From the IMG/VR virus record IMGVR_UViG_2740892439_000018: 16,746 bases of DNA. One strand, 5' to 3'. The position numbers and the translations under genes are program-made. Shown piece by piece: positions 329 through 15,839 of this stretch. Every line of letters begins with the position of its first letter. The first letter of the stretch is position 1. Under the pieces are notes generated by a model. It saw nothing but the letters and a program-made list of their open reading frames with translations. It ran no database searches and had not been told where the DNA came from. This DNA is from a virus. Lineage: Duplodnaviria; Heunggongvirae; Uroviricota; Caudoviricetes.

Positions 329-625
329 ATGTTCGAACAACGCGTAAATTCTGACGTACTGACCGTTTCTACCGTTAACTCTCAGGATCAGGTAACCCAA
401 AAACCCCTGCGTGACTCGGTTAAACAGGCACTGAAGAACTATTTTGCTCAACTGAATGGTCAGGATGTGAATGACCTCTATGAGCTGGTACTGGCTGAAG
501 TAGAACAGCCCCTGTTGGACATGGTGATGCAATACACCCGTGGTAACCAGACCCGTGCTGCGCTGATGATGGGCATCAACCGTGGTACGCTGCGTAAAAA
601 ATTGAAAAAATACGGCATGAACTAA
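329..625 (+). CDS. fis: DNA-binding protein Fis (nucleoid-associated factor for inversion stimulation)
   Basis: 98-aa product [21 protein letters not shown]...[17 protein letters not shown] recognised as E. coli Fis with C-terminal HTH; ATG 329, TAA 623-625. Confidence 0.97.
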
Positions 626-688
626 TTCAGGTTAGCTAAATGCTTGATTAAAAAGGCGCTACTCGGCATGGGGAAGCGCCTTTTTTAT
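609..688. repeat. attL: left copy of perfect 80-bp direct repeat (fis 3' end plus terminator)
   Basis: 80/80 identity with 15760-15839, checked base by base; flanking bases differ at 608/15759 and 689/15840. Covers the last 17 nt of fis and the downstream hairpin. Confidence 0.88.
650..688 (+). terminator. fis rho-independent terminator (copy inside attL)
   Basis: Stem AGGCGCT (654-660) / AGCGCCT (675-681) followed by TTTTTT (681-686); A-tract upstream. Confidence 0.7.
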
Positions 689-692
689 TAAA

Positions 693-714
693 ATGACTGC
701 ACCACTGACTGCAC
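693..714. repeat. 22-bp arm-type repeat TGACTGCACCACTGACTGCACA (left arm), internally a tandem ACTGACTGCAC pair
   Basis: Exact 22-bp match with 15611-15632 in the same orientation; lies 5 bp inside attL. Confidence 0.6.
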
Positions 715-1037
715 ATAAGCACGAACGAAACCGAACAATAATAAATAGAATAGATACCTGCCAGTGGTTATGTCTCCGCAGTGATGTGTTTTTTCATTTT
801 TAATGGGGATAAAAACGGTGTGGTGAGCGGTCCGGAAGACGCCATGGCAAGAGTTTTGCCCCGCTTCTCCCTGTGCATGATAGATAACCGAGGGCGGAAT
901 TCCGCCTTCGGTGCTCACATATGAGAAATAATATTTCGTCCACCGATACCCTTTATTTGGGTATCGCGAGTAAGCCCCAGAATCTGGGTGTTACTCTTAC
1001 TACCCAAACTACGGGTAGTTTCCGTAGTTTCATGGTC

Positions 1038-1106
1038 GAGTTGCAGATCTGCAACTCACCCACCAGCCAACCCATTTTGGGGCTGTCGGGAATATCAACC
1101 AGTTAC
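1038..1106. repeat. Structured non-coding repeat unit A: 20-bp perfect palindrome GAGTTGCAGATCTGCAACTC (1038-1057) followed by 44-bp conserved block (1063-1106)
   Basis: Palindrome verified; 44-bp block matches 1367-1410 at 36/44 positions, including CCAGCCAAC and TCGGGAATATCA.C.AGTTAC. Confidence 0.55.
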
Positions 1107-1348
1107 TGACAATGCTCTGGGCGTTCTGTCTAGCTGGTGGCTGTGGCTGGACGCTAATTTTTGCGTACCACTTTTGCGCACTTTTTCAGGGTCGGATTTC
1201 AGATCCCCACCATTCTGGGAGCAGTTGCAGGGGCCGAATAAATCAATAGCCGTGCTGGTAACGTTTTGCATGACAAGTTTTGACAGTTTTTTATCTTCCG
1301 GCCTCCTCAAAATTGAGGATTGAAGAAAAGTCAATGGGTTAGGTCATC

Positions 1349-1410
1349 GTGCAAATTTGCACTATGCCAGCCAACGCAATTTTGCGTTATCGGGAATATC
1401 AGCAAGTTAC
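1349..1410. repeat. Structured non-coding repeat unit B: 14-bp perfect palindrome GTGCAAATTTGCAC (1349-1362) followed by 44-bp conserved block (1367-1410)
   Basis: Same architecture as unit A about 300 bp away, in the same orientation. Confidence 0.55.
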
Positions 1411-1697
1411 CGCCGCAGTCGTTCCGGCTTCTTCCACTGGTAAGTATTTTTCGCGCTCTCCCTCCGTTGTTGAGAACGGCGACGGTATGCCAGCAACTCA
1501 AGGACTCTGGTTCGTATGTTGCGCATATCCACGCCGTTAAGCTCAATACCGTCACGGCGCATCACCTCAGCCACCACACGCGCGTAATTTTCGGCTATCA
1601 CGCTGTCCGGCTGTGTAGCCTGTTCGTCAGGCTGCTGACTGATTCCGGTAATGCGGCGAATTATTTTTAGTAGATCAGTTTCAGTCATTCTCGTCAT
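1407..1697 (-). CDS. Hypothetical protein, translationally coupled to terL (ATGA overlap)
   Basis: 96-aa ORF whose ATG (1697-1695) overlaps the terL stop TGA (1696-1694); N-terminal two-thirds protein-like, basic C-terminus looks odd. No recognised family. Confidence 0.35.
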   Translation of the reverse strand: MTRMTETDLLKIIRRITGISQQPDEQATQPDSVIAENYARVVAEVMRRDGIELNGVDMRNIRTRVLELLAYRRRSQQRRESAKNTYQWKKPERLRR

Positions 1698-3355
1698 ACC
1701 CCATCAAACGCCGCAAGTCGCTCTTTGTGGCTGTCGCTCATATCAAATGCAAATTCCTCATGCTCTGCCTGGAATGTGCCAAACGCCATCAGCGCCGCAA
1801 CGCTCGGGTCTATCTTGTTGGATGATTTTTTCTTGTTCGGCTTGATATTGGCGTTCGCGTCACTCTGCATCACAACATTACTCATTGACCAGGCCAGCAC
1901 CGGATCACCACGATGCACAATCACCTTCCGGTTAACAAAAACTTCGAACGATTTCGCCGCCGGACTGAAACGAAGGTATGTTTGCGGGAACGGCTCCACC
2001 TCAAATCCTGCCCCCTGTAGCTGCGTCCTCAGGTGCGTGGCGTTCCATGTATCGAAGCCCACCAGCCTGATATTGAAATTCTCTGCATCCGCCATGATGT
2101 CATCACGGATACGGTCATAATCAATGCAGTCACCCGGTGTTGTGCGTATCCAGCCCGCCTTTACCCACTGGCGATAGATGGCGCGGTTTTTATTGGCGGG
2201 GTTCTGTAGCTGAAATTCCGGCAGATAGTGACGGGAAACCAGCATAATCTTTTTACCGACCGGAAAGGCATAGCACACGCTGGAAATATCGCTGGTTGAT
2301 GATAAGTCCAGCCCCGCGTAGCACTCCTGCCCGTATAAATCCGCCTCCGCGAACGTTCCGGCGCACTCCGCCCATGCACCGTTACCCATCCACGGCGTAG
2401 CCCCCTGACACCAGATATTGAATCGCTTGGTGAGCATTTCCACCCACTGCGACGGAATACCCCGCGCTTTCTGGATGGTTGAGGCCAGTTTTTCACGATC
2501 GACGGAAACATCGATATTTGGATTCGCCTTTATCCACATCGCCGGATCGTCAACCTCGCTTTCATCATCCAGCTCGTAAATCAGAACGAACATGGATTCG
2601 TTCATCTCTTCACCATCCAGTATCTGACAGCAATAGTCATAGTGTTGTTTACAGGCTGAAACAACGTTGCTCCCCGATGTGGTGATGGCAAATAACAGCC
2701 CCTCCGGACGCGCCCCCATCCCCAGCTCAAGTGCGGAATAAACCCCGTTGTCTGGGTGCAGGTGATATTCATCCACAATGGCAAGACTCGGGTTTGTCCC
2801 CTCAATGGTTGCCGCTTTTGCTGCCAGTGGCTTTAACAGGCTGTTGGTTTTCGGGTGTATCACCTTGTGCGCCTGAATATTTACCCGCTTTCGTAACGGT
2901 CGGGATAAAAGGCACATCTGACGCGCATCATCAAACACGATCCGCGCCTGATCACGACTCACGGCGGCGGTGTAAATATCCTGCTGCCCGTTTTCCATAA
3001 CCAGAAACCAGTTAGCCAGGATAGCGGCGACCGTGGATTTGGCATTTTTTCGCGGTACTTCAATGAATGCGCTGGTGTATTTGCGCCGTCCGGTGGCCTT
3101 AACCTTAAAGCCCAGGATGCAGGCAAAGGCGAACTGCTGCCACGGCTCCAGTTCAATGGGACTACCGCGCATTGCGCCTTTTACGTGCGGACACACCCGG
3201 GAAAAGGCAATAAACCGCTCCACGACCTCCGGATCGAACGTGTAAAGGGAGTTTTCAAGGTCAGAAAAATACCGTTTAACGGCCTGTTTCAGTCGTTTAC
3301 AGGCCGTAATTTTGCCGTTTTTTACGCCTTCTGCGTACTCATGCCAGGCGGTCAA
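1694..3355 (-). CDS. terL: Terminase large subunit (TerL)
   Basis: 553-aa product with a terminase-type N-terminal ATPase region and C-terminal nuclease region; follows terS with 17-nt overlap. Start appears to be TTG at 3355 preceded by GAGGAAGAGG Shine-Dalgarno. Confidence 0.92.
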   Translation of the reverse strand: MTAWHEYAEGVKNGKITACKRLKQAVKRYFSDLENSLYTFDPEVVERFIAFSRVCPHVKGAMRGSPIELEPWQQFAFACILGFKVKATGRRKYTSAFIEVPRKNAKSTVAAILANWFLVMENGQQDIYTAAVSRDQARIVFDDARQMCLLSRPLRKRVNIQAHKVIHPKTNSLLKPLAAKAATIEGTNPSLAIVDEYHLHPDNGVYSALELGMGARPEGLLFAITTSGSNVVSACKQHYDYCCQILDGEEMNESMFVLIYELDDESEVDDPAMWIKANPNIDVSVDREKLASTIQKARGIPSQWVEMLTKRFNIWCQGATPWMGNGAWAECAGTFAEADLYGQECYAGLDLSSTSDISSVCYAFPVGKKIMLVSRHYLPEFQLQNPANKNRAIYRQWVKAGWIRTTPGDCIDYDRIRDDIMADAENFNIRLVGFDTWNATHLRTQLQGAGFEVEPFPQTYLRFSPAAKSFEVFVNRKVIVHRGDPVLAWSMSNVVMQSDANANIKPNKKKSSNKIDPSVAALMAFGTFQAEHEEFAFDMSDSHKERLAAFDGV

Positions 3356-3695
3356 GTTCGTCCTCTTCCTCTGTTTCCGGTGGATTTCTGCGACGGCTTA
3401 CCGGGTCAAAACCCAGCAAAGAAGCCATTTTGATCATTATTCTTTCTGCGTCAGCCTTTGCGCTCAGTGCGGGGTTTCTGCTCTCGCTGCCCTGACTGTT
3501 AACAATGCTGAACCCGCGCGTCGCAAGGTCTTCGACGGCTTTGCGGTATATGGAGTAGTTAACACAATACAGTTCCAGATTGCTCCAGTCGGCGGGGGTA
3601 AGGTCTTCCCGCCCGGAAAGCTGGCGCGATTTTTCCTTCCACTGCCTGACCGCGATTTCATCCAGGTAAGCGGGGGCTTTTGGTGGTCTTGCCAT
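3339..3695 (-). CDS. terS: Terminase small subunit (P27-like TerS)
   Basis: MARPPKAPAYLDEIAVRQWKE... resembles P27-family small terminase; immediately upstream of terL. ORF-track start at 3740 is a TTG; first ATG is at 3695. Confidence 0.82.
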   Translation of the reverse strand: MARPPKAPAYLDEIAVRQWKEKSRQLSGREDLTPADWSNLELYCVNYSIYRKAVEDLATRGFSIVNSQGSESRNPALSAKADAERIMIKMASLLGFDPVSRRRNPPETEEEDELDRLA

Positions 3696-3805: not shown

Positions 3806-3983
3806 TCTGACGGCCTCACCAGCGATTGCGAAAACATTCCATGACCTCGCGGTCACGGTCGGTTAATCGCTTCGCTGTGGTGCGTTTTGTGCGCCCTGTC
3901 CTGTTGGCTTTGTGCTCTGTCTCCTGTGTCTTCCATGTGTCACGCTGCCTTATCAGTCCACGTATCAGCTGGTTTGCTCCTGT

Positions 3984-4424
3984 TCAGTCATCATCGCCAT
4001 ACATCCAGTCGTTACGGTGTGCCGCCCGTTCTTCCTGCTCGCGATACATGCCCGCTTTACGGTTTGCTTTCGTGGCTGGATCTTCCCGTGTCGTCTTACG
4101 GTTGTGGCACGTCTGGCACAATGCCTGGTGATTCCACTCAGGCCAGAAGAGAACATCACCGCCGCCATTGATGGGAATGATGTGATCCACCACAAGAGCT
4201 GGCGTATAAATCCCCTTAGCCAGACAACGCACGCATAACGGGTTTTTGCTCAGGTACAGGGCGCGGTATTTGTCCCACTGTCGGGAATACCCGCGCGCGC
4301 GGCGGTGTCCCCGTCTGGCATCCTCTGCACGCCATGCAGCCCGCCTGTGCTCTTCACACTTGCCGGACTTCACGCGCTTATTACAGCCAGGCTCAGTGCA
4401 TCGCCTTAATGGTTGCCACGGCAT
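3984..4424 (-). CDS. HNH endonuclease (phage packaging-associated)
   Basis: 146-aa product with Cys-rich N-terminus (CTEPGC...C..C) and HNH core ...LVVDHIIPINGGGD...NHQALCQTCHNRKT; AGGGGTG Shine-Dalgarno; overlaps connector stop (TGATG). Confidence 0.9.
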   Translation of the reverse strand: MPWQPLRRCTEPGCNKRVKSGKCEEHRRAAWRAEDARRGHRRARGYSRQWDKYRALYLSKNPLCVRCLAKGIYTPALVVDHIIPINGGGDVLFWPEWNHQALCQTCHNRKTTREDPATKANRKAGMYREQEERAAHRNDWMYGDDD

Positions 4425-4726
4425 CAGTACACCCCTACGTCACGATAAACTGACCAGAGCGCAGAAATAGCCATAGGCAGTTCCGAGTGCTCCACTGGTG
4501 AAACCGCTTCCCGGTTCTCGTACAGGAAAGCGATGTACATCAGGCAACCAACACGCATTGCCGGGGTAAATTCCAGCCCGTCTTCAAAACGTTTCCCGAT
4601 ATGCTTCTGGCAGGCTTCCAGCGCCGCATCGGTATACATTTTCAGAAGTTCGCCTTCACCGGATAAATCATCATCAAGTCGAAGATGTGCCCTGACTTCA
4701 TCAGGTGTAATTCTGGCTTCACTCAT
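4424..4726 (-). CDS. Head-tail connector / DNA-packaging protein (gp6-like)
   Basis: MSEARITPDEVRAHLRLDDD... resembles the N-terminus of gp6-type head-tail connector proteins; GGGAGA Shine-Dalgarno before ATG 4726; 8-nt overlap with portal stop. Confidence 0.65.
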   Translation of the reverse strand: MSEARITPDEVRAHLRLDDDLSGEGELLKMYTDAALEACQKHIGKRFEDGLEFTPAMRVGCLMYIAFLYENREAVSPVEHSELPMAISALWSVYRDVGVY

Positions 4727-5933
4727 CTTTTCTCCCTTTAATTTCCACAGTCTGTTTCCATGCCTGGCTGAACTCATCACCACCTTCACGCGGCGGCATA
4801 CCCTCACGCTCACGGGCTTCGTTCGGATTCATGATCCCGTTCTTAATCCCTTTCTCATACGTGGCATAACGTTCGGTGGGTGTGGCGCGTAATAAATCGG
4901 CTGAATCAAACTCAACCAGATAACGGGTACCAGGTACGGGAGAAGCCACCAGCAAAGCGGCCTTGATTTGCTGTTCGAAGTTCGCCAGCCACGGGCGCAT
5001 TGTCATGGTCAGAAACGCGCGGCTTGCCTCGCTGAAATTGCTGTAGGTGCTGTTGCTGTATTCCTGCAGAAAAATAGGCGATACGTTGAACATGCGGGCG
5101 ATGTCTTCAATGGAGAAGCGACGGGAGGCCAGCCATTCCGCATCCTGGTTACTCATTCCCAGTTGCCTGTAATCCATGCCCCCTTCAAGGATTGGCGTTT
5201 TTCCGGCATTTTTCGCCCCCTTGTAGCGTTCCAGAGCATCCAATGCCTGTTTACCTTTCACGCCGTCCAGCCATTCGCCTGACGTGATAATCCCTGCCGC
5301 CATCATGCCATCTTTCATAATGCTGGCTCCGTGGCGCTGTTGAGCAAGGCCAAGCCCAAGTGCCTCACGGCAAATCGTGACGGGGGAGCGCCCCAGAAAG
5401 CCATCATCCGAGGCATAGCGGAGATGCAGAACTTCTTCCTGTAAATACGTGCGCACCGTTCCTGTATAGGGTTCGGTGATGGTATAGCGGTATTTGTGTG
5501 CGCCTGTGCGTTCCGGTACAACACACCCCGGCGCATAAGGATGAAGTGATTTTGGCTGCCCGTCCTGCCCCCACTCAATAACCGCATAGGCGTTACCGTT
5601 CAGCAGGCAGTGACGCATCATTGTGCGTTTAAACTGGTAAGGTGTCTGGCACGAATTAGGCTGCTCATTCAGCAGAATATCTACCGGGTGACTGTCCAGC
5701 CATTCCCGCGCCTCCCTGCCCTTGTCATTACGTACCAGATACAGATAACACGGCATCGTGGCCACCGCCTCAGCGATGACAGAAACCGCATTCATCACTG
5801 CAGGCAATGATTCAGCCGTCCCGGCAGAAACATATTCTCCGGATCCGGTATTCGGTACGCCGGACAGCGCCAGAAAATCATCAATGGACAGGTTACGCTG
5901 CTCGCTTTTTTTACGACTAAAAGGCCACCACAT
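4719..5933 (-). CDS. Portal protein (HK97 family)
   Basis: Portal-like blocks (LPAVMNAVSVIAEAVATMPCYLY, NEQPN, LLNGNAY, IARMFNVSPIFL, RPWLANFEQ); first ATG at 5933, 1 nt after protease stop. ORF-track start 6023 is TTG. Confidence 0.92.
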   Translation of the reverse strand: MWWPFSRKKSEQRNLSIDDFLALSGVPNTGSGEYVSAGTAESLPAVMNAVSVIAEAVATMPCYLYLVRNDKGREAREWLDSHPVDILLNEQPNSCQTPYQFKRTMMRHCLLNGNAYAVIEWGQDGQPKSLHPYAPGCVVPERTGAHKYRYTITEPYTGTVRTYLQEEVLHLRYASDDGFLGRSPVTICREALGLGLAQQRHGASIMKDGMMAAGIITSGEWLDGVKGKQALDALERYKGAKNAGKTPILEGGMDYRQLGMSNQDAEWLASRRFSIEDIARMFNVSPIFLQEYSNSTYSNFSEASRAFLTMTMRPWLANFEQQIKAALLVASPVPGTRYLVEFDSADLLRATPTERYATYEKGIKNGIMNPNEAREREGMPPREGGDEFSQAWKQTVEIKGRKDE

Positions 5934-5934: not shown

Positions 5935-6495
5935 TCACAACCCCGCCAGCTCAGACCAGCGATGACGATTATTTCCTGTCGGGCATAATTCAGGGTGCTG
6001 TGCAAACAACGAACGGTGGGCAATCTCCACGCCAGATTCTGGATAAGCAGGCATCGACGTTATTGTGATTTCACGGAGTTCAGCGGCGGTTACGGTACGC
6101 AAATACGGTTTTTGCGCGATACTCCACTCCTCGCATAATGCGCGAAAACCAAAGCTCATTCCTGTAATGTCGCCACGCTCCACCAGCGTAAGCACATCTT
6201 TTCCAAGCTGGGTATCCGGCGGTGTCAGTTCAAAACGTAACCCGGTGTTATCCTCAGTCAGTACCAGAGTGCCGGATTTGGTGCGCCCCAGCAGTTGGGT
6301 ATAGTCATGCTCATACAGGCAGCGCACATCATTACCCGCCGCCAGATAGTCAGCAAAAGCCCCCGGCGTGAACTGTTCGCGGAATTCGTCCCAGATAATT
6401 TCTGAAAGGCTGTTCCAGCGAACGGCATACCCCACCAGCTTTTTATTGCTGGCGGTCAGTTCAGATGTGCGGATTTCAAAATCGGTGTTTTTCAT
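5935..6495 (-). CDS. Prohead maturation protease (HK97 family, S78/U35)
   Basis: 186-aa product with GYAVRWN...FTPGAF...EHD...LGRT...EDNTGLRFE...GMSFGF pattern typical of HK97 prohead proteases; GGAG Shine-Dalgarno 7 nt before ATG 6495. Confidence 0.9.
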   Translation of the reverse strand: MKNTDFEIRTSELTASNKKLVGYAVRWNSLSEIIWDEFREQFTPGAFADYLAAGNDVRCLYEHDYTQLLGRTKSGTLVLTEDNTGLRFELTPPDTQLGKDVLTLVERGDITGMSFGFRALCEEWSIAQKPYLRTVTAAELREITITSMPAYPESGVEIAHRSLFAQHPELCPTGNNRHRWSELAGL

Positions 6496-6549: not shown

Positions 6550-7717
6550 CTAGCCAGCTTTCATTTCCAGAATTTTGATGGCGTTTGAATCCACCACACC
6601 ACCGCCCAGATATTTATCCGTGTGGACCTTGTAGAATCCGGGTTCAGTAATGTTGTCCGGTCGGGTGCGAATCCCTGTTACATGATCAACGATGAAATAA
6701 CCACGACTGAAATCGCCAACCGCTAGCGGTGCTTTTCCTGCGCCGATGTCCGGCATGGACTCCAGGCAGTAAACAGGACGACCAAGCAACATATCCGGCG
6801 CACCTTCTTTAAGGCTGTCGCGCCAGATATAATCGCCGTTCTCATTTTTCAGCTTCTGTAGTGTCCCTGCCGTGCCCGAGTTCATCACCCAGACGGCATT
6901 TTTGCGGTATTTCGCTTTCAGCTTGTAGAGAATGTCGATCAGTTCGTCCGCTGTAATGGCGGTTCCACTTGCCGCTACCATTTTTTCAATGGTGCCAAAA
7001 GCGCGGGTTTTGTCACTGGTCGCCGCACGGGTGTAAGCATGAAGCCTTTCGGCTTGCCGTTACCGTTGCCATTAACAAAATCATCCTCTTCGGTGCTGGC
7101 GAACGTGTCGGCAATTTCGGAGGATAACCAGCCAGAATATCCACCTCTGAAAAATCTAGGATTTCCTGCGTGGTTTTCGGGTAGGCGTAGATCGGGTTCA
7201 GCTTGATGGTTACGCGTTCAATTTTCGGGGTGTTGGTTTCACTGCGTGCGCTGCCTTCTGTGCCTCGTCCTACAGTTGCGCCGCCAGTGGAAACCAGTTT
7301 CTGAAACTCATTTGATTTTGCAGTCTTCACGGTCGCGATCACGCGCATAACACTGTCATCCTGTAGCTGGCGCATGACTTCGCGATCAAGCTCAGGAATT
7401 ACGGTATATCCGCCATCCCTGCCGCTGTCAGTGCTGGTGGACAGAGATCGCACATCTCCGGTTACGATGTAGTTACGCAATTCATCAGATGATACTTTCT
7501 GGATGCCCGTTCCTGGCTTGCTGCGTTCTTCATCAGCCACAGACTCGAGGCGGGAAATGTCTGTATCGAGGGAATCAGCTTTTGCACGCAGTTCATCAAA
7601 CTGTTTGCCCTCGTCATCGTTCAGGCTGCGGTTTTCACTGTCGGCTTTTTCCAGCAGGGATCGCATCTGGTTTTTCAGGGCGTTTTTTTGCTGGCGGAGC
7701 TCGATTAATTTCTTCAT
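6550..7717 (-). pseudogene. Major capsid protein (HK97 family), disrupted by two single-base frameshifts
   Basis: N-terminal frame 7717-7013 (coiled-coil delta-like region then TIKLNPIYAYPKTTQEILDFSEVDILAGY); a third frame across about 7125-7035 reads SSEIADTFASTEEDDFVNGNGNGKPKGF; C-terminal frame 6981-6550 reads AYTRAATSDKTRAFGTIEKMVAASG...MKAG. Hand translation puts the shifts near 7119-7126 and 7036-7043. Confidence 0.85.
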
Positions 7718-8741: not shown

Positions 8742-8770
8742 ACGCAAAAGCGATCACGAGGAGCAACATA

Positions 8771-9280
8771 ATGGATCTTAACGTCATGGCATATCCAGAA
8801 AAATTCACAATCGCAGGAGTTGAATACAAGGGGAAAAGAAACTCAGCTGAAAAAAAAGTGCTAATCCCTTATACTGAAGAACCAGATATTAATATTGGAG
8901 ATGAAATCACTCAAAAACTAGGGAAGGGGGAAATAATATTAAAAGTAATTGATATGTCATTTTTACCAGGAGGTACACTCAATGTTGGTACTAATCACCC
9001 TCACATGCTTACATTAAAAGTCGAGAATCTGACTGCTAATGAACATAAACCAAAACAATCTAGCCAAAATACATTTAACATTGGTAACATATCCGGTACA
9101 CAGGTTCAACTCGGTGAGCATAACAATCTTATTGTAAATCTCAGCATAACTGAACTTGTTGAAAAAGTTTCTCAATCACAAGATCCTCAGGCAAAAAATT
9201 TGCTTAAGGATTTACTAAATAATAGTACGGTAGCCAGTCTCGTTGGTGCTGGTGCGTCCGCCTTGTTAACAATGCTTTGA
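8771..9280 (+). CDS. Hypothetical protein (169 aa), AT-rich accessory gene with hydrophobic C-terminal tail
   Basis: Strong GAGGAG Shine-Dalgarno 7 nt before ATG 8771, 29 nt after the previous stop; motif NTFNIGNISGTQVQLGEHNNLIVNLS...KNLLKD parallels the upstream protein; ends ...STVASLVGAGASALLTML. Confidence 0.8.
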   Translation: MDLNVMAYPEKFTIAGVEYKGKRNSAEKKVLIPYTEEPDINIGDEITQKLGKGEIILKVIDMSFLPGGTLNVGTNHPHMLTLKVENLTANEHKPKQSSQNTFNIGNISGTQVQLGEHNNLIVNLSITELVEKVSQSQDPQAKNLLKDLLNNSTVASLVGAGASALLTML

Positions 9281-9314: not shown

Positions 9315-9575
9315 TCATTTCTCACTCATCCAATTAGGAGGTAGTGGCATTTTTTTCCTTAAAACCTGCAAATGCTCAATCAAAACATTAACCTGCTCTT
9401 GATTTGTTGCAAGGATTTCATCTGATAGCGTGCTACGAATAAAATCATGATGGTCAATCCACAGTAAACCACCATTTGCAAGGGCCTGACGGTACTGAGT
9501 GGTAGGCATTGAAGCAATATCATGAAGTCCGAATTGATCAAAATAATTGTTTATTTCATGCGTCAGAATCGGCAT
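9315..9575 (-). CDS. Hypothetical protein (86 aa)
   Basis: ORF with AGGAAG Shine-Dalgarno upstream of ATG 9575; lies just downstream of the iteron region on the minus strand; no recognised family. Confidence 0.55.
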   Translation of the reverse strand: MPILTHEINNYFDQFGLHDIASMPTTQYRQALANGGLLWIDHHDFIRSTLSDEILATNQEQVNVLIEHLQVLRKKMPLPPNWMSEK

Positions 9576-9723
9576 TATTTCTTCCTATTTTATCTAATTT
9601 ATCTAATTTGTAGTCATTTTTAACCAGTATTCGGTCAAATCAAGCGCGTGTTTTTGTGTGCTTTACTGTCATAGTCTTTATCTCACAGCAGTAAATTAAA
9701 ATTTTTGCGTTTTAACCCTTCAC

Positions 9724-9946
9724 CTGTTCACCTTTTGATATTTTATCTTTTAATTCATAAGGTTAAGGGGTGAACAGTTTCACAAAAACTATTCACCAAC
9801 TGTTCACCACTGTTCACCCTTGAAGCTCAATAAACAATCAAAAAGGTGAACAGTGAATAGTTTGGTGAACAGTTCATAAATAACTGTTCACCCTATAATA
9901 TACTGATATAAAAGATATTTATGACAGGGTGAACAGTGGTGAACAG
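9724..9946. repeat. Iteron array (9 copies of GGTGAACAG / CTGTTCACC in both orientations); putative island replication origin
   Basis: Forward copies at 9769, 9845, 9864, 9928, 9938; reverse copies at 9724, 9800, 9810, 9884; embedded in AT-rich DNA immediately 3' of the primase-helicase stop (9960-9962). Confidence 0.72.
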
Positions 9947-9959
9947 TTATTCCATAAGT

Positions 9960-11777
9960 TTAATTTTTGCTATCGTCATTAGTGACCGATACACATGATG
10001 GCATCCAGTCTTCTGATTCCTCCGTCAGTGTCACGTTTGAACGCAAACCGTGCTTCGTTTTCCGTTTCATATACTCCCTGCCATATTCCGCCATTGCCCC
10101 CGGCATATCTTTACCGAAGCGCGTCAGTGTTACAGGTTTACCAAACCCATGTGCCCTCATATAAGCCAGATAGGCATGATAGAGATATCTGCGCGGGCTG
10201 AATGGCACAATTTCAGCATTACCCACTAACAGGCCATCACACATTACCGACGCCATGAGATAGCCGCAGAAGTCCACCAGCGAATCCCCCTCTCGCTTTA
10301 TCGCCAGTGCTTCTTCAGATTTCTGCTGCTCATATAACAGGCGTCTGGCTTCGTCCTGGTTAGCAAACCGTGTAAGCAGATGGCGAATCACTACCGCCAG
10401 CTCACCTTCTATTTTTTCCGCCAGCATCGGATCACGTTCGTTCTCCGGTACAACTTCCGAAAAATTGAATATCACCCGACGACGTGAGATCCCCCCGCTG
10501 CGGTCACTGAATGACATGGCGTTATTGTTAACCGCCAGCACTACTGCCGGAATACGCGTTGAGTAGGGAGCTTTGTGTTTCGGGTCAATTGCCACCTTGT
10601 CACCGCCTGTAATGGCCTTAATCCCTGCCCCATCACCAGCGTAGCGGGTCATATCCGGCATGATAATCAGAGAAAAGCCAACCACTAACGCACGTTCCCT
10701 TGCATCTTCCAGCGCCTTCATGCTTGCTGATACTGTATTAGCCTTACCCGCCAGCATGGTGCAAATCTCCGCCATTACGCTTTTACCGCTTCCACCAGGA
10801 CCAGTTACCTCAATGAATAACTGCCAGTCATATCTGTTCGCCAGCACCATGAATAATGCCGCCAGTACACGATCCGCTTTGCGATCATTCTCAGCCACCG
10901 AACGGTGCAACCACTTCCAGAAATTCGGCGCATGTGTTGCCAGCGTTTCCCCCTCTGCTGGTGGGCTGAAAGGTAATTCACTGGCAATTAACAACCAGTC
11001 GTTTTTGTTATGCTCCCGAAAATTACCTGTTCTGGTATCAAATACCCCGTTACTGAATCCAATCAAGTTACGGGCTGTATTCCCCATTACAGGCAAACTT
11101 AACTTCATGGTATCGACCGCTGATTTAATAGCGTTCTGTGAATAGCTGATCTCCGCATCAATGAAAATCTGCGCCATAGCACGCTGTAACTCTTTATCCT
11201 GAACCGGCTCCCATATAACGCCGTTGTAATGGTGAACAGTGTCAGAGTCAGCATGAATCGCCAGTTCACCACCATAATGTGCCAGGAGAACTTCGCCGCG
11301 TTGACTTGCTCCCATCTGGTTAAGCGCCAGTGATGAAGCGTTATCGTCTTTTACCCGCTCTTTTTTCTTTACAGGCAGTTCAACAACCTTTTTCTTTTCC
11401 GCCAGCTCTCCCCGCTCACGCTCCAGATATTCGCGCCAGTTCTCCCGTTTCTGGCTGTGCATTCCTTCAGGGTAATAATCAGCATCCCTGACACCTGCCG
11501 CTGCCAGTTTCTGCCCGATGGTATTAACAAGTCCCGGACGCAATAACCCCGCCTGATAGAGACGCACACGATAGCGTCCGTCTGGTACGATTTGCAGGTT
11601 GTCCAGTTCGGCAAGTTGTTGCTCTCCAAGCCAGACAGGTGGCACGTTATCGCCAGCCAGTCGCCCGTCCTGTTCCTGCCACTGCTTCGCATGTGCCCAC
11701 GCATCACTACCCGCAAAAATGATGACTTCCGTCATTTTGTCACGCGGTTGGTGTTTTAAATTTGGCGCTTTTTTCAT
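9960..11777 (-). CDS. Replication initiator: P4-alpha/D5-like primase-helicase (Pri-Rep) with Walker A GPGGSGKS
   Basis: 605-aa product from ATG 11777 (GGAGAGAG Shine-Dalgarno; ATGA overlap with upstream gene); central P-loop NTPase (VTGPGGSGKS...DxxxD) resembles D5_N/SF3-helicase replication proteins of P4-like elements; ori iterons abut its 3' end. Confidence 0.88.
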   Translation of the reverse strand: MKKAPNLKHQPRDKMTEVIIFAGSDAWAHAKQWQEQDGRLAGDNVPPVWLGEQQLAELDNLQIVPDGRYRVRLYQAGLLRPGLVNTIGQKLAAAGVRDADYYPEGMHSQKRENWREYLERERGELAEKKKVVELPVKKKERVKDDNASSLALNQMGASQRGEVLLAHYGGELAIHADSDTVHHYNGVIWEPVQDKELQRAMAQIFIDAEISYSQNAIKSAVDTMKLSLPVMGNTARNLIGFSNGVFDTRTGNFREHNKNDWLLIASELPFSPPAEGETLATHAPNFWKWLHRSVAENDRKADRVLAALFMVLANRYDWQLFIEVTGPGGSGKSVMAEICTMLAGKANTVSASMKALEDARERALVVGFSLIIMPDMTRYAGDGAGIKAITGGDKVAIDPKHKAPYSTRIPAVVLAVNNNAMSFSDRSGGISRRRVIFNFSEVVPENERDPMLAEKIEGELAVVIRHLLTRFANQDEARRLLYEQQKSEEALAIKREGDSLVDFCGYLMASVMCDGLLVGNAEIVPFSPRRYLYHAYLAYMRAHGFGKPVTLTRFGKDMPGAMAEYGREYMKRKTKHGLRSNVTLTEESEDWMPSCVSVTNDDSKN

Positions 11778-12073
11778 TTCTGCTCTCTCCACGCGGCAAT
11801 CATGTTTTTCAGTTCCTGTAGTTTTTTATCCACATCCACACGTGACACATGGTTATTTCTGGAAGGCGGGATTTCCCGCCGGAATCTGCAAATAAAGATC
11901 TCCACGTTCAGCGAGCTATGAAATGAATAGCCATCACGAATAAAGTACACACGGTCAAACATTATCGATTTTACTGTTACTCTGTTGCCGTTCTTATCCC
12001 GATAAATAGCGCCGGGGATAATTTTGGGATGTGCATAACCGCTGGCAGTCAAGCCAGATAAATACGTTCTCAT
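11774..12073 (-). CDS. Hypothetical protein (99 aa), coupled to pri-rep
   Basis: ORF whose stop overlaps the pri-rep ATG (ATGA); unrecognised family. Confidence 0.55.
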   Translation of the reverse strand: MRTYLSGLTASGYAHPKIIPGAIYRDKNGNRVTVKSIMFDRVYFIRDGYSFHSSLNVEIFICRFRREIPPSRNNHVSRVDVDKKLQELKNMIAAWREQK

Positions 12074-12079
12074 GATTAT

Positions 12080-12400
12080 TTATCCCCGATTTGAATCAGT
12101 ATTCGCTTTCTTTATGGCATTTAATGCATCTGTGGCATTTTCAATGGTGCACCGTAACGAAATATCAAAATGTCCAAGCATTGCCAGTAACAAACCGATA
12201 TTACCCATATCAATGCGCATGGCCTTTGCGTCATATTCCTCATTTTCTGACGCATGCCACATCAGGCTACCAATTGACGCAACAGCCATTGATATATTGT
12301 CAGTAGCCCCATCCGCAGCGGAATAAACCTTTTTAGCAATATCATGCTCACAGTTAAAATGCGGATTAATCAGGTACTGGTAATTTGACATATCAGGCAT
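12080..12400 (-). CDS. Hypothetical protein (106 aa)
   Basis: Strong AGGAGGTG Shine-Dalgarno 5 nt before ATG 12400; stop 6 nt before the next gene start; unrecognised family. Confidence 0.65.
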   Translation of the reverse strand: MPDMSNYQYLINPHFNCEHDIAKKVYSAADGATDNISMAVASIGSLMWHASENEEYDAKAMRIDMGNIGLLLAMLGHFDISLRCTIENATDALNAIKKANTDSNRG

Positions 12401-12596
12401 GGCGCACCTCCTTGCGGATACGGGCGGTGAACACCATCACGCAGCCAGCCGGGGATTGCTGGCGGGCTTCCTGTTCACTGGTGGCCACGATGGTAATCAC
12501 ACGCGGTTTTGCGGCGCTCAGGGCGATAAAACGCCAGGTGAATTTATTCAGGTTGTGCGAATCCCGCCCTCGCGGGTGTGTGGTATGATTTAACAT
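12393..12596 (-). CDS. Hypothetical small protein (67 aa), first gene of the minus-strand early operon
   Basis: C-terminal portion of a longer, mostly non-protein-like ORF-track frame; own GAGG Shine-Dalgarno before ATG 12596; stop overlaps the next gene start by 8 nt. Competing plus-strand ORFs make this uncertain. Confidence 0.4.
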   Translation of the reverse strand: MLNHTTHPRGRDSHNLNKFTWRFIALSAAKPRVITIVATSEQEARQQSPAGCVMVFTARIRKEVRHA

Positions 12597-12789: not shown

Positions 12790-12969
12790 ATGGCAACTGG
12801 TGCAAAGAACGCAAAATCACAAATGACAACTGTCAGAATCCCACATGAAGTAATGGATGATATTGAGCAACTTAAAGAACCTGGCGAAAGTACCGCTGGT
12901 TTTTTAGTTACTGCCGCAAAAGGCGAGATCAAACGCCGCCAGCGGCGCAAGGCCAAAGAGCAGGAGTAA
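12790..12969 (+). CDS. Putative ribbon-helix-helix (CopG/Arc-like) DNA-binding protein (59 aa)
   Basis: AGGAG Shine-Dalgarno 8 nt before ATG 12790; TTVRIPHEVMDDIEQL... fits the RHH beta-strand plus helix pattern; basic C-terminus. Confidence 0.5.
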   Translation: MATGAKNAKSQMTTVRIPHEVMDDIEQLKEPGESTAGFLVTAAKGEIKRRQRRKAKEQE

Positions 12970-13270: not shown

Positions 13271-13298
13271 GGCGACCGCCCCCGGTCGCCTTTGTTTT
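13271..13298 (+). terminator. Rho-independent terminator (plus strand)
   Basis: Stem GGCGACCG (13271-13278) / CGGTCGCC (13283-13290), loop CCCC, followed by TTTGTTTT. Confidence 0.65.
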
Positions 13299-13315
13299 AT
13301 ATACCATAACTCACC

Positions 13316-13537
13316 TTACGCCGATTTCAGTTGTGCTTTGGGTTGACGATCAAGCCAATCATTAACCTCAGACAGCAACCAACCGACAGAACGAGCCCCC
13401 AACTGACGACGGGCTGGAAACACCCCTTTCCTTTCCATCATATAACGCGTCGTTCGGCAAATACCGGTAAGGCGTCGGCATTCCTCCTCACGAATGATGC
13501 GATCAAATTGGTCTTGCGATGATTTAACTTTGCTCAT
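13316..13537 (-). CDS. alpA: AlpA-family transcriptional regulator / excisionase-like HTH protein
   Basis: 73-aa product from ATG 13537: ...QFDRIIREEECRRLTGICRTTRYMMERKGVFPARRQLGARSVGWLLSEVNDWL matches the AlpA/prophage CP4-57 regulator pattern. ORF-track upstream extension not supported. Confidence 0.85.
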   Translation of the reverse strand: MSKVKSSQDQFDRIIREEECRRLTGICRTTRYMMERKGVFPARRQLGARSVGWLLSEVNDWLDRQPKAQLKSA

Positions 13538-13599
13538 ATGGATATGCCCTCGTTTATTATCGTTCGAGAGCATATTGATAATATGCTTAGAATATTTAG

Positions 13600-13630
13600 G
13601 TGATATCACATATTTTATATGTGATATCAC
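13600..13630. promoter_or_regulatory. Two copies of the 10-bp palindrome GTGATATCAC spaced 21 bp centre to centre, upstream of alpA; candidate operator
   Basis: Palindromes at 13600-13609 and 13621-13630 with AT-rich spacer ATATTTTATAT; the second overlaps the stop codon of the upstream 245-aa gene. Confidence 0.5.
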
Positions 13631-14364
13631 GTTCGCCCTAAGTATTTAGCCCACGTATTCTTATCTGTTGCGGGAAGAAACACCCCTTTCATCGCTGCCG
13701 CAGCCTCTAAAACAGCGATCACTTTAGCAACTGGAGCAGTTCCAATATCTATATCATCCATTTCTGGAATTAGTTTGATTAATGCAGGGATCAACTCAGC
13801 TTTCTTCGCAAGAGTTTTTGGCGATTCTCCCATTTTTCTTCCAGGCATGGTTCCAACATCTTTGATATGCTCCAAATCCTTAGCCATTACACATAAAAAC
13901 CTTCTGTCGATCTCAATAGCCCCATCACTCATAATTTGACATTCCCAGTTTTCTGATTCAGGACGAGTTGAAAAAAAAGATGATACTATCCTTGCATCAT
14001 TGCCAATAAATTCAAGTTCAGAAAAACTTTCCCGATTTAGATAGAAGAAACCGCAAAAATTCTTTGCAAGATAAGAAGCCACACCAAAATAATTTACCCA
14101 TTCAAAATCGCTACCAACAGGCTTCATCCCTGTAATTACCCAGCGATCCCCTTGCAACATCCCTCCAGAATCAACATCAATATTTTCAACTAATGATTTT
14201 GGTATAACTAGCGATTTACATGGATGACAGTTTGGAAAATAAACAGAAATATTCAAAGCACCTATAGCAGCAAAATGATATATATCATTAAGCGTACATC
14301 CCAGCTTCTTTGCTGCTTCAGGCAATGGATAATATATACGCTCAGGGATGCTTATCTTTTTCAT
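13627..14364 (-). CDS. Hypothetical protein (245 aa), AT-rich, translationally coupled to int; possible N-terminal HTH
   Basis: ATG (14364-14362) overlaps the int stop TGA (14363-14361); visibly lower GC than int; N-terminal LPEAAKKLGCTLNDIYHFAAIGAL resembles an excisionase/AlpA-type HTH; remainder unrecognised. Confidence 0.78.
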   Translation of the reverse strand: MKKISIPERIYYPLPEAAKKLGCTLNDIYHFAAIGALNISVYFPNCHPCKSLVIPKSLVENIDVDSGGMLQGDRWVITGMKPVGSDFEWVNYFGVASYLAKNFCGFFYLNRESFSELEFIGNDARIVSSFFSTRPESENWECQIMSDGAIEIDRRFLCVMAKDLEHIKDVGTMPGRKMGESPKTLAKKAELIPALIKLIPEMDDIDIGTAPVAKVIAVLEAAAAMKGVFLPATDKNTWAKYLGRT

Positions 14365-15584
14365 TTCGCTACCTTCAATATTTTTACATTTGAATACTGA
14401 CCAGAAATAACCTCAAGCCGTTCCATCCATTTATTTAGAGCGTCTAGTTTTTCTGGTAAGTACTGGCTACGATTGTATATGGCCATTACACCACCTAATG
14501 TGTGACCGAGAAGCTGTTCAACAACATGTGGTGCAATCCCCATGTTATTTAGTGTGGTAGCAAACGTCCTGCGCAGGTCGTGAAGTGTCCACGATTCAAT
14601 ATGCCCCAGACGCTTATATATCATCCTCCCCCATTGGCTGACAGCTTCTGGTTTCTTTATTTCACCCAACAAAAGACCTGAGTTTTTGTGTTGCTCTATA
14701 AGCTGTTGGATGAATGGGCGTATTACCACTGGAATAGGGCGCAATATCTTCTCTCCGCCTTTGCTGTGTTCTTTAGGCACTGTCCAGATCCAATCCTTTA
14801 AATCCCACTCTGTAATACGTGACAACCGAAGCTCCTGGGTTCGACATCCAAACACCACCAATAGACGCAACAACGATGAATAGTATGGTTTAAATTTCTT
14901 ACCTGAACATTCCTGCCAAATATCTGCTAACTCTTGACTGCTGTGTTCCCTATCGCGCTTATTCTGTTTTCTACCAACATCATCGATAGTCAGGTCATCC
15001 AGAGCATTGCTAACCGCATAACGATGTACGCGGCAAAACTTCAGAGCCTGCTTACACATCTGCAGCAAATAACCAGCTGCCACTGGAGCGTCATTCCTTA
15101 CTCTAGCGAAACACTCCAGCCAATGCCGGGTTTCGCACATTGATAACGGATAATCACCTATATAGGGGAAAATATGCTTCCTCAGTTGCTCAATGTGTTT
15201 ATCAACATTCGTGCGCTTGTAAACGGCGTATTCTCTGATCCAGTAATCCAGAGCCTCTTTTACCGTCACTGGTTTGAGTGTTTCATGTATTGCCACATTT
15301 AACCGATGCTTTGGATTTTTACCTTCAGCAAGCCATGCTCGACACTGTTCACGTTTCTCGCGCGCAGCTTTCAGAGAAAGATCCGGGTAGTTTCCAAGCT
15401 TAACACGCTGTGAATACGATTCACGCCCACCAATCCGGAAAGAGAAATACCAAGTAAGAACGCCAATTTTTGACACCTTGATACTCAATCCATCACCGTC
15501 AGCATAAAATCTATCTCTATCGATTTCCCTCCCCAGCATCTTACGCAACGATGTATCGCTTAATTTGTTCGTTCCTCCAGCCAT
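14361..15584 (-). CDS. int: Tyrosine site-specific integrase (P4-type)
   Basis: 407-aa product from ATG 15584 (AAGG Shine-Dalgarno); N-terminal MAGGTNKLSD... and C-terminal catalytic region ...WTLHDLRRTFATTL...VEQLLGHTLGGVMAIYNRSQY typical of P4-family integrases. ORF-track start 15665 is TTG. Confidence 0.93.
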   Translation of the reverse strand: MAGGTNKLSDTSLRKMLGREIDRDRFYADGDGLSIKVSKIGVLTWYFSFRIGGRESYSQRVKLGNYPDLSLKAAREKREQCRAWLAEGKNPKHRLNVAIHETLKPVTVKEALDYWIREYAVYKRTNVDKHIEQLRKHIFPYIGDYPLSMCETRHWLECFARVRNDAPVAAGYLLQMCKQALKFCRVHRYAVSNALDDLTIDDVGRKQNKRDREHSSQELADIWQECSGKKFKPYYSSLLRLLVVFGCRTQELRLSRITEWDLKDWIWTVPKEHSKGGEKILRPIPVVIRPFIQQLIEQHKNSGLLLGEIKKPEAVSQWGRMIYKRLGHIESWTLHDLRRTFATTLNNMGIAPHVVEQLLGHTLGGVMAIYNRSQYLPEKLDALNKWMERLEVISGQYSNVKILKVAK

Positions 15585-15610
15585 AGAAAACCTTAATTCA
15601 TATTGAAAAC

Positions 15611-15632
15611 TGACTGCACCACTGACTGCACA
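15611..15632. repeat. 22-bp arm-type repeat TGACTGCACCACTGACTGCACA (right arm, int promoter region)
   Basis: Exact copy of 693-714; lies 27 nt upstream of the int start and 127 bp inside attR. Confidence 0.6.
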
Positions 15633-15759
15633 CTTTAATATTACCCTATGAACAGAAATGAACAAAGGTAAACTAAAGAAACAACATTAATTATTTTATT
15701 CAATAAGTTATATAAACACTAACGAACCATGACAAACTGTAAGAAACATAGGTTTTGAT

Positions 15760-15839
15760 AATACGGCATGAACTAATTCAGGTTAGCTAAATGCTTGATT
15801 AAAAAGGCGCTACTCGGCATGGGGAAGCGCCTTTTTTAT
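15760..15839. repeat. attR: right copy of perfect 80-bp direct repeat
   Basis: Identical to 609-688; contains a second copy of the fis 3' end and terminator hairpin (about 15801-15839) just upstream of yhdJ. Confidence 0.88.

What the first reader, a model, noticed from the sequence alone, without database searches (positions are those of the whole stretch)
609..15839. About 15-kb capsid-encoding, tail-less satellite-like island inserted into the 3' end of fis
Perfect 80-bp direct repeats flank an element with a P4-type integrase, AlpA, a primase-helicase with iteron origin, and a complete HK97-type head/packaging gene set, but no tail, lysis or lysogeny-repressor genes visible. That architecture fits the published description of capsid-forming PICIs that build their own small capsids and borrow helper-phage tails. 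Its boundaries and gene content are fully resolved inside this window.
Basis: partly seen in the sequence, partly recalled or inferred. Interest (0 to 1): 0.7.

Follow-up and report, generated by a model that had tools for sequence, protein, structure and literature searches.

The report
Capsid-forming phage satellite at fis

Summary
The 80-bp perfect direct repeats (609-688, 15760-15839) are real. They begin in the last 17 nt of fis and run through its terminator. 5306 of 5426 complete E. coli genomes carry the uninterrupted fis|yhdJ junction with one copy. The 15.15 kb between the repeats is collinear with the prototype cf-PICI EcCIEDL933, with packaging proteins 56-93% identical. It encodes int, AlpA, a D5-type replicase with 10 iterons, HK97 capsid, protease, portal, gp6-like connector, HNH, TerS and TerL. 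It has no tail or lysis genes. The att block matches the published "fis PICI" consensus TACGGCATGAACTAA.

Two corrections to "complete head gene set":
- The element lacks the head-closure (adaptor) gene that EcCIEDL933 has, giving 10 of 11 SatelliteFinder core components (Type B). This is a lineage trait, also seen in 9 of 51 related loci.
- In this window the capsid gene is split by two single-C deletions. None of the 18 closest genomes shares them, so they are probably assembly errors, possibly decay.

The only unexplained content is a low-GC, opposite-strand gene pair in the known PICI immune hotspot. It has no Pfam or PADLOC match, a shared RHIM-like/glycine-zipper C-terminal module and a phage-neck-like beta-barrel.

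Verdict: a new member of a known kind, of low to moderate interest.

The parts
609..688 (.). attL: left copy of the 80-bp identity block. It holds the last 17 nt of fis plus the fis rho-independent terminator, so fis stays intact.
   Evidence: Contains TACGGCATGAACTAA, the published fis-PICI identity block.
15760..15839 (.). attR: right copy of the 80-bp identity block.
   Evidence: 100% identical. Empty sites carry one copy.
690..715 (+). Doubled motif (A)ACTGACTGCAC x2 next to attL, a candidate arm-type integrase binding site.
   Evidence: 4 half-sites, 0.17 expected. In the reconstructed attP it lies about 84 bp from the core centre. The function is inferred.
15607..15632 (+). Second copy of the doubled ACTGACTGCAC motif, upstream of int, about 149 bp from the core centre in attP.
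   Evidence: The layout resembles the doubled-motif layout described for related HE-PICI attPs.
14361..15584 (-). Tyrosine integrase (407 aa), P4/CP4-57-type architecture, reading inward.
   Evidence: PF13356, PF22022, PF00589. annotation. 54% identity to the EcCIEDL933 integrase.
13627..14364 (-). 245-aa protein of unknown function between int and alpA.
   Evidence: No Pfam or PADLOC hit. Only a weak PHROG hit.
13316..13537 (-). AlpA-family regulator/excisionase.
   Evidence: PF05930, E 3.4e-14. 63% identity to EcCIEDL933 AlpA.
12790..12969 (+). YlcI/YnfO-family small protein, divergent from the replication operon.
   Evidence: phrog_949.
12393..12596 (-). Icd-like protein (67 aa).
   Evidence: 47% identity to the EcCIEDL933 homologue.
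12080..12400 (-). 106-aa hypothetical protein.
   Evidence: phrog_15327, function unknown.
11774..12073 (-). DUF4222 protein, immediately upstream of the replicase as in EcCIEDL933.
9960..11777 (-). Replicase (primase-family / SF3 helicase, 605 aa).
   Evidence: D5_N, DUF5906, Pox_D5. Only the C-terminal 143 aa resemble the DUF927 replicase of EcCIEDL933.
9723..9947 (.). Iteron origin: 10 copies of GGTGAACAGT (<=1 mismatch) in both orientations, AT-rich, just downstream of the replicase gene.
9315..9575 (-). 86-aa hypothetical protein, homologue of the EcCIEDL933 gene just upstream of its capsid gene.
   Evidence: phrog_1957. 38% identity.
8771..9280 (+). Cargo protein B (169 aa, low GC). It has a beta-barrel N-domain, an invariant FNIGxxSGxQVQxGNxN motif, a helix, and a glycine-zipper hydrophobic C-terminus.
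7977..8741 (+). Cargo protein A (254 aa from the GTG start; the mechanical ORF starts at 7965). It has a helical N-domain plus a diverged copy of the same C-terminal module as protein B.
6550..7717 (-). HK97-fold major capsid protein gene. In this window it is interrupted by two single-C deletions, just after window bases 7037 and 7131.
   Evidence: Intact 389 aa in L001. Best solved-structure match is 9gyi (E 8e-155).
5935..6495 (-). Prohead serine protease (S78).
   Evidence: E 7e-46.
4719..5933 (-). Portal protein (404 aa).
4424..4726 (-). gp6-like head-tail connector (100 aa). It is the only gene between portal and HNH.
3984..4424 (-). HNH endonuclease of the packaging module.
3816..4000 (-). 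Homologue of EcCIEDL933 gene 1792 (61 aa in MS6198), frameshifted in this window by a 1-nt deletion just after window base 3968.
   Evidence: A 1792 mutation severely reduced transfer.
3339..3695 (-). Small terminase (P27 family).
1694..3355 (-). Large terminase.
   Evidence: 93% identity to EcCIEDL933 TerL.
1407..1688 (-). 93-aa conserved hypothetical protein following terL (also present in EcCIEDL933, 75% identity).
689..1406 (.). About 0.7 kb with no annotated gene. It carries a 44-nt motif twice (1063-1106; 1367-1410, the latter running 4 nt past this stretch into the stop codon of the 93-aa gene). The second copy is 98% conserved in EcCIEDL933.
   Evidence: No Rfam family.
329..625 (+). 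fis (host gene, intact). The insertion target is its 3' end.
15862..16746 (+). yhdJ (host gene), the normal downstream neighbour of fis.

Best explanation
The region is a capsid-forming phage-inducible chromosomal island (cf-PICI). It was integrated by its own tyrosine integrase into the 3' end of fis, the 'fis PICI' attachment site, and it regenerates the fis terminus and terminator.

Inferred life cycle, by homology with EcCIEDL933:
- A helper phage, or stress, turns on alpA.
- AlpA drives excision at the 80-bp block and expression of the island genes.
- The D5-type replicase fires the iteron origin.
- The island's own capsid protein, protease and portal build small heads.
- Its HNH/TerS/TerL machinery packages only island DNA.
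- The gp6-like connector on the portal then receives a tail made by a helper phage.

Because this lineage has no head-closure (stopper) gene, it probably also depends on the helper for that neck protein. The copy in this window may be unable to make capsids if the two capsid-gene frameshifts are real.
For: Shown here:
- Perfect 80-bp repeats.
- A single-copy empty site in 5306 of 5426 E. coli genomes, with 100% one-piece matches.
- The island is present at >=80% coverage in only 20 of 5426 genomes.
- Domain assignments for every core gene.
- Gene-by-gene collinearity and 56-93% identity with EcCIEDL933.
- The MCP best matches PDB 9gyi, a 385-aa 'major head protein' with 4 chains, which fits the 4-subunit asymmetric unit reported for the EcCIEDL933 T=4 capsid.
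- Iterons are strongly enriched.
- The same packaging and replication module sits at other att sites with other integrases: thiM/rcnR and inside prophage TerL genes. This is how a mobile modular satellite behaves.
- No phage among 50,697 records holds more than 21% of the island.

From the literature:
- cf-PICI definition and experiments.
- Connector and adaptor determine tail choice, and tail-less capsids are released.
- The fis identity block TACGGCATGAACTAA, and excision of a fis PICI shown in Klebsiella.
- The SatelliteFinder 11-component model with Types A, B and C.
Against: - No experiment here shows excision, replication or transfer of this element.
- The helper phage is unknown.
- The capsid gene and the 1792 homologue are frameshifted in this window.
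- One of the 11 cfPICI core components (head-tail adaptor / head closure) is absent.
- The replicase N-terminal part is unrelated to that of the prototype.
Confidence: 0.9

Rival explanations
1. This particular copy is a decaying, no longer transmissible cf-PICI. The two frameshifts in the capsid gene and one in the 1792 homologue are real mutations, so the island can still excise and replicate but cannot build heads.
For: The window differs from MS6198 by four single-base indels, three of which fall inside packaging genes. None of the 18 closest genomes shares the capsid deletions, so the lesions are private to this genome.
Against: All four indels involve C residues, and one sits in a stretch where CCACCCCCACCCCC has become a 15-C run. 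That pattern is typical of base-calling or assembly error. The rest of the island has only 11 substitutions in 15 kb. Three independent frameshifts and no other damage would be an odd decay pattern.
Confidence: 0.2
2. A defective HK97-like prophage remnant that lost its tail, lysis and immunity genes by deletion, rather than a satellite.
For: The head and packaging genes are of phage type.
Against: - The boundaries are exact att repeats, and nothing is missing between fis and yhdJ.
- The same tail-less gene content recurs with intact ORFs in 20 E. coli genomes, at other att sites, and in 51 loci of other genera.
- int reads inward with AlpA and a P4/PICI-type replicase and iterons, which is the PICI layout and not the prophage layout.
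- No phage record shares more than 21% of the island.
Confidence: 0.03
3. A classical (non-capsid-forming) PICI or P4-like satellite that merely carries some captured late genes and still uses helper capsids.
For: fis PICIs in general are mostly classical PICIs with variable 'late zones'. The integrase and replicase are P4/PICI-like.
Against: The island carries portal, protease, MCP, connector, HNH, TerS and TerL together. These are homologous to the set shown by mutagenesis to be required for EcCIEDL933 capsids. Portal and connector are 'forbidden' in the PICI model. No Sid/Psu/Delta-like ORF is left unassigned.
Confidence: 0.04

Closest known systems
EcCIEDL933, prototype cf-PICI of E. coli O157:H7 EDL933 (Alqurainy et al., bioRxiv 10.1101/2022.09.08.507074; NZ_CP008957.1, about 1680329-1694760)
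   Same: Same size class (15.15 vs 15.4 kb). Same order: int, alpA, (icd-like, DUF4222), replicase, ori, accessory region, capsid, protease, portal, connector, HNH, 1792, terS, terL, 93-aa gene, about 0.7-0.9 kb non-coding. Protein identities are 54-93%. A 44-nt non-coding motif is shared at 98%.
   Different: - A different att site (fis versus roxA/phoQ).
- No head-closure/adaptor gene.
- A D5_N/DUF5906 replicase instead of DUF927.
- No SSB or PerC genes.
- An opposite-strand two-gene cargo instead.
- An extra 245-aa gene between int and alpA.
'fis PICIs' (Tommasini, Mageeney & Williams 2023, PMC10111431)
   Same: Integration at the fis terminus with the identity block TACGGCATGAACTAA extending into the terminator. 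yhdJ lies across the island. int reads inward and is followed by AlpA. The island follows the Integration / (Bro) / Replication / Late zone order.
   Different: That paper treats fis islands as PICIs with variable late zones and does not single out capsid-forming ones. This island has no Bro-N protein and no C4/isrK-type RNA. Its attP carries a doubled ACTGACTGCAC motif rather than the TGTATTGC motif of the related helper-embedded PICIs.
SatelliteFinder cfPICI Type B (Moura de Sousa et al. 2023, PMC10085698)
   Same: 10 of 11 core components and no tail or holin genes. Type B (10 components) is the commonest class, 459 of 969.
   Different: I could not run SatelliteFinder itself. The component count is my own mapping of Pfam hits onto their list.
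Tai and Bab/Agp defence systems carried in phage and PICI hotspots (PMC11364771; bioRxiv 10.1101/2024.11.07.622273)
   Same: The cargo pair sits in the accessory region downstream of pri, where PICI-borne Tai genes were found. A phage homologue of protein B sits in the moron locus upstream of the packaging genes, as tai does. Two adjacent proteins share a short beta-motif, as Bab and Agp do.
   Different: No sequence relationship to TaiEcA (hhalign probability 0.1-0.2%). The architecture is unlike Bab (109 aa, helical, C-terminal motif) or Agp (1094 aa, TPR-PIN). No function has been tested.

Membership tests
cf-PICI (capsid-forming PICI) | Integrase at one end, bounded by att repeats | tested here: met
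cf-PICI (capsid-forming PICI) | AlpA-type regulator | tested here: met
   PF05930, E 3.4e-14.
cf-PICI (capsid-forming PICI) | Primase/replicase with adjacent origin | tested here: met
   D5_N, DUF5906 and Pox_D5 domains. 10 iterons against 0.84 expected.
cf-PICI (capsid-forming PICI) | Own major capsid protein, prohead protease and portal | tested here: met
   MCP E 8e-155 to PDB 9gyi. 62-81% identity to EcCIEDL933.
cf-PICI (capsid-forming PICI) | Capsid gene intact in this sequence | tested here: not met
   Two 1-nt deletions split it into two ORFs. It is intact in all 18 closest genomes. This is probably a sequencing artefact.
cf-PICI (capsid-forming PICI) | Head-tail connector (gp6-like) | tested here: met
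   PF05135.
cf-PICI (capsid-forming PICI) | Head-tail adaptor / head-closure protein (PF05521) | tested here: not met
   No tblastn hit at E<=10. Portal and connector ORFs overlap and leave no room. The same holds in 9 of 51 related loci. The family definition tolerates one or two missing components (Types B and C).
cf-PICI (capsid-forming PICI) | HNH, TerS and TerL packaging genes | tested here: met
   84-93% identity to EcCIEDL933.
cf-PICI (capsid-forming PICI) | No tail and no holin/lysis genes | tested here: met
   All ORFs were scanned against Pfam and PHROGs. The flanks are host genes.
cf-PICI (capsid-forming PICI) | Helper-dependent induction, small T=4 capsids made of island protein, tails taken from the helper | not testable with these tools
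   Shown only for EcCIEDL933 and a few others.
fis PICI (integration-site group) | attL/attR identity block TACGGCATGAACTAA at the fis stop codon, with yhdJ across the island | tested here: met
fis PICI (integration-site group) | Integrase belongs to the fis subclade of the HE-PICI integrase clade | not tested
   No reference fis-PICI integrase sequence was at hand. This is inferred from the att site only.
P4-like satellite | Psu-Delta-Sid capsid-size redirection operon and a helper cos site | tested here: not met
   No such ORFs exist. Every ORF over 60 aa is otherwise assigned or has no Pfam/PHROG match to them. No C4/isrK RNA.
Temperate HK97-like prophage | Tail, lysis and immunity modules contiguous with the head genes | tested here: not met

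The most novel reading that the evidence does not exclude
The island's opposite-strand, low-GC gene pair (7977-8741 and 8771-9280) may be an undescribed anti-phage or helper-interference system.

The two proteins have different N-domains but share a C-terminal module: an invariant RHIM/PP-like 'SGxQVQxGNxN' beta-motif, a helix, and a glycine-zipper hydrophobic tail. The N-domain of protein B is predicted to fold like a phage neck 'stopper'/head-tail adaptor barrel.

A mimic of a neck protein could sense or cap phage heads. It could then trigger homotypic (amyloid-like) assembly and membrane damage, or it could free helper tails for the satellite.

Separately, cf-PICIs without a head-closure gene may have to borrow the helper's stopper as well as its tail.
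Probability: 0.2. Interest if true: 0.65.

Novelty: new member of a known kind. Interest (0 to 1): 0.3.

Why it matters
As a cf-PICI at fis it adds little. Thousands of fis islands and about a thousand cfPICIs are already catalogued, and the mechanism was worked out on a close relative.

Two details could be useful to specialists:
- It is a clean example of the sub-lineage that lacks the head-closure/adaptor gene, which is one of the two proteins reported to set tail specificity. This lineage therefore tests whether 'only tails are stolen' holds for all cf-PICIs.
- It carries an uncharacterised gene pair at the PICI immune hotspot. The pair recurs in cf-PICIs of several genera and in a phage moron locus, which makes it a reasonable candidate for a defence screen.

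Tried and rejected
1. Cargo protein B as the 'missing' head-closure protein: rejected.
- hhalign against the EcCIEDL933 head-closure family gives 0.1% probability.
- In a survey of 65 related loci, protein B occurs in 6 islands that all have a head-closure gene, and in none of the 9 other islands that lack one.
- It also occurs outside satellites and in a phage moron locus.

2. Cargo as a Tai system: hhalign against phi80 orf63 (TaiEcA) gives 0.1-0.2%. Rejected at the sequence level.

3. Cargo as Bab/Agp amyloid signalling: the architectures differ. There are only sub-threshold Pfam RHIM hits (16 of 96 members, best E 0.0036) and EAD10 hits (11 of 96).

4. PADLOC: no defence-family hit for any unknown ORF, except a negligible BrxA match.

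5. Rfam at E<=1: only chance-level hits, and no P4-type C4/isrK immunity RNA.

7. The 44-nt motif as a family-wide site: found only in the E. coli-type elements, 4 of 55 loci, so it is not a general cf-PICI signal.

8. Supplementary tables of the cf-PICI paper listing the att sites are images or not held. I could not check whether fis is among its 'six attB sites'.

Full report
OBSERVATION

The window contains one long perfect direct repeat, 80 nt at 609-688 and 15760-15839. The left copy starts 17 nt before the fis stop codon (fis 329-625) and runs through a GC-rich hairpin and T-run, the fis terminator. The right copy lies 22 nt upstream of yhdJ.

A synthetic 'empty site', made of window 209-688 joined to 15840-16339, matches complete E. 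coli genomes at 100% identity in a single piece (e.g. NZ_CP025859). It is covered at >=80% in 5306 of 5426 genomes. The normal locus therefore holds one copy, and the second copy is created by the insertion. The island itself is present at >=80% coverage in only 20 of 5426 genomes. In strain MS6198, where the whole window aligns at 99.7% identity, RefSeq annotates dusB-fis on one side and yhdJ-yhdU-acrS on the other. Nothing phage-like lies beyond the repeats.

GENE CONTENT

Reading from attR inward on the minus strand, the island carries:
- a tyrosine integrase with Arm-DNA-bind_3, Phage_int_M and Phage_integrase domains;
- a 245-aa unknown protein;
- AlpA (PF05930);
- an opposite-strand YlcI/YnfO gene;
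- an Icd-like gene, a 106-aa unknown and a DUF4222 protein;
- a 605-aa replicase with D5_N, DUF5906 and Pox_D5 domains;
- an 86-aa unknown;
- two plus-strand genes in a 35% GC patch;
- the HK97-type capsid gene, S78 protease, portal, a gp6-like connector, HNH, a 61-aa gene, TerS (P27 family), TerL and a 93-aa gene;
- about 0.7 kb with no gene, up to attL.

Directly downstream of the replicase gene there are 10 copies of GGTGAACAGT (<=1 mismatch) in 225 bp, in both orientations. The whole window would be expected to hold 0.84. That supports the 'iteron origin'.

A doubled motif ACTGACTGCAC-N-ACTGACTGCAC occurs exactly twice, just inside attL (690-715) and upstream of int (15607-15632). In the reconstructed attP the two copies flank the core at about 84 and 149 bp. 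This arrangement is like the doubled arm-type motif reported for the related helper-embedded PICIs. I take these to be arm-type integrase sites, which is an inference.

No ORF matches a tail, holin, endolysin or CI/Stl-type repressor family.

TWO CORRECTIONS TO 'COMPLETE HEAD GENE SET'

First, relative to MS6198 the window has four single-base indels, all involving C. One extra C sits in a stretch where CCACCCCCACCCCC has become a 15-C run, and there are three deletions. Two deletions fall in the capsid gene and split it into ORFs 7013-7717 and 6550-6981. One falls in the 61-aa gene. None of the 18 genomes that match this stretch at >=99% shares the capsid deletions. The pattern looks like assembly error, but real decay of this copy cannot be excluded.

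Second, the island has no head-closure gene. EcCIEDL933 has one (112 aa, PF05521, E 7e-23) between portal and connector. Here the portal and connector ORFs overlap, and tblastn finds nothing even at E<=10. The same layout is seen in other E. coli relatives.

WHAT IT IS

I located EcCIEDL933 in the EDL933 chromosome, between roxA and phoQ, and compared gene by gene. The two islands are collinear. Identities are TerL 93%, TerS 88%, HNH 84%, portal 81%, gene-1792 homologue 77%, the 93-aa gene 75%, MCP 63%, protease 62%, connector 56%, AlpA 63% and integrase 54%. Only the C-terminal 143 aa of the replicase are related. The founding paper gives 50-90% as the range within the family and describes exactly this order for Proteobacteria: capsid, protease, portal, head connectors, then hnh-terS-terL.

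The intact MCP's best solved-structure match is 9gyi, at E 8e-155. It is 385 aa with four chains, as expected for the four-subunit asymmetric unit of the EcCIEDL933 T=4 capsid. That 9gyi is that capsid is my inference from those numbers.

The att block contains TACGGCATGAACTAA. Tommasini et al. report this as the conserved identity block of 2642-3565 'fis PICIs', often extending into the terminator and with yhdJ across the island. Excision at this block was shown experimentally for a Klebsiella fis PICI.

SatelliteFinder defines cfPICI by 11 core components with tails and holins forbidden. Type B (10 components) is the commonest class. By my mapping this island has 10, lacking the adaptor.

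The same replication and packaging module occurs at 97% identity with a different integrase at thiM/rcnR. Relatives sit inside prophage TerL genes. Among 50,697 phage records nothing covers more than 21% of the island, and the best hits are themselves small satellite-like records.

HOW IT MOST LIKELY WORKS

This section is inferred by homology and nothing was tested here. A helper phage or stress activates alpA. AlpA promotes excision at the att block and expression of the island. The replicase fires the iteron origin. Island-encoded MCP, protease and portal build small heads. HNH, TerS and TerL package island DNA only. The connector accepts a helper-made tail.

Because the head-closure protein is missing, this lineage probably needs the helper's stopper too.

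A survey of 65 portal-homologue loci from one genome per species gave 51 with a measurable portal-to-HNH interval. Of these, 42 have about 630-710 nt (one outlier of 1034 nt, where the portal match is partial), which is room for two genes. Nine have 267-374 nt, connector only, in Xenorhabdus, Pantoea, Symbiopectobacterium, Yersinia, Leclercia and Erwinia. The head-closure-less form is therefore a recurrent variant, not an accident of this copy.

THE CARGO

The two plus-strand genes have no Pfam or PADLOC match.

Protein B (169 aa, phrog_5789) belongs to a family of about 168-aa proteins. Members are 55-65% identical across Gammaproteobacteria and all are annotated as hypothetical. The alignment shows three parts:
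- a beta-rich N-domain;
- an invariant FNIGxxSGxQVQxGNxN stretch;
- a 'DPxAKSxLKxLLxNSTVASxIGAGASALLGLL' tail.

Its last 70 or so residues are homologous to the C-terminal module of B. The module alone finds 80 clusters. It is always C-terminal, in proteins of about 150-180 aa or about 215-276 aa.

Structure and weak family signals:
- Scanning the 96 family members against Pfam gives only sub-threshold matches, most often RHIM (16 members) and EAD10 (11 members).

I tested and rejected three ideas: that B replaces the head-closure protein, that the pair is Tai, and that it is Bab/Agp (see Tried and rejected).

The position, downstream of pri, is a published PICI immune hotspot. A phage homologue of B sits in the lysis-terminase moron locus. 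A defence or interference role is therefore plausible but unproven.

NOVELTY AND SCORE

Family, mechanism and integration site are all published, and near-identical copies exist in 20 complete genomes. This is a new member of a known kind. Interest is 0.3. The residual interest lies in the adaptor-less neck and the uncharacterised cargo pair.

Noticed in passing
window 7977-9280 (+): A low-GC two-gene cargo in the PICI immune hotspot. Both proteins share a C-terminal module with an invariant RHIM-like 'SGxQVQxGNxN' motif and a glycine-zipper tail. The N-domain of protein B is predicted to fold like a phage neck/stopper barrel. No Pfam, PADLOC, Tai or Bab/Agp relationship was found.
   Followed up: yes
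window 4424-4726 and 4719-5933; loci L031, L039, L043-L046, L050, L051, L077: A cf-PICI sub-lineage with no head-closure/adaptor gene. Portal is followed directly by the gp6-like connector. It was found in 9 of 51 related loci across six genera, plus the E. coli relatives.
   Followed up: yes
window 3791, 3968, 7037, 7131: Four single-C indels relative to the otherwise 99.7%-identical MS6198 sequence, including a stretch converted to a 15-C run. They break the capsid gene and the 1792 homologue. This looks like long-read or homopolymer assembly error.
   Followed up: partly
window 1063-1106 and 1367-1410; L003 about 15057-15101: A 44-nt motif (CCAGCCAACGCAATTTTGCGTTATCGGGAATATCAGCAAGTTAC, with an internal palindrome) occurs twice in the gene-free 0.7 kb next to attL. 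It is 98% conserved, and also repeated, in EcCIEDL933 non-coding DNA. It could be a packaging or regulatory site. It was not found in cf-PICIs of other genera.
   Followed up: partly
window 690-715 and 15607-15632: The doubled ACTGACTGCAC motif flanks the attP core at about 84 and 149 bp. It is analogous in layout, but not in sequence, to the doubled motif published for helper-embedded PICIs.
   Followed up: partly
L009, L011, L012 (E. coli contigs): Related cf-PICIs, carrying a protein B homologue alone, are flanked by the two halves of a TerL gene. They are inserted inside a prophage terminase gene, the helper-embedded configuration.
   Followed up: no
window 8709: MS6198 has a T here that creates a premature stop in cargo protein A (244 aa). 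The window and strain MB06021 encode the full 254 aa.
   Followed up: no
window 15888-15963: A cluster of 18 substitutions relative to MS6198 lies in the first 100 nt of yhdJ, next to attR. yhdJ is a pseudogene (internal stop) in MS6198. This suggests a recombination patch or allelic difference at the island border.
   Followed up: no
phage records LR881103.1, PQ569648.1, OR850982.1: GenBank 'phage' entries matching the island's capsid-portal region at about 76% identity include a 16.5-kb 'induced prophage'. These are likely cf-PICIs deposited as phages.
   Followed up: no
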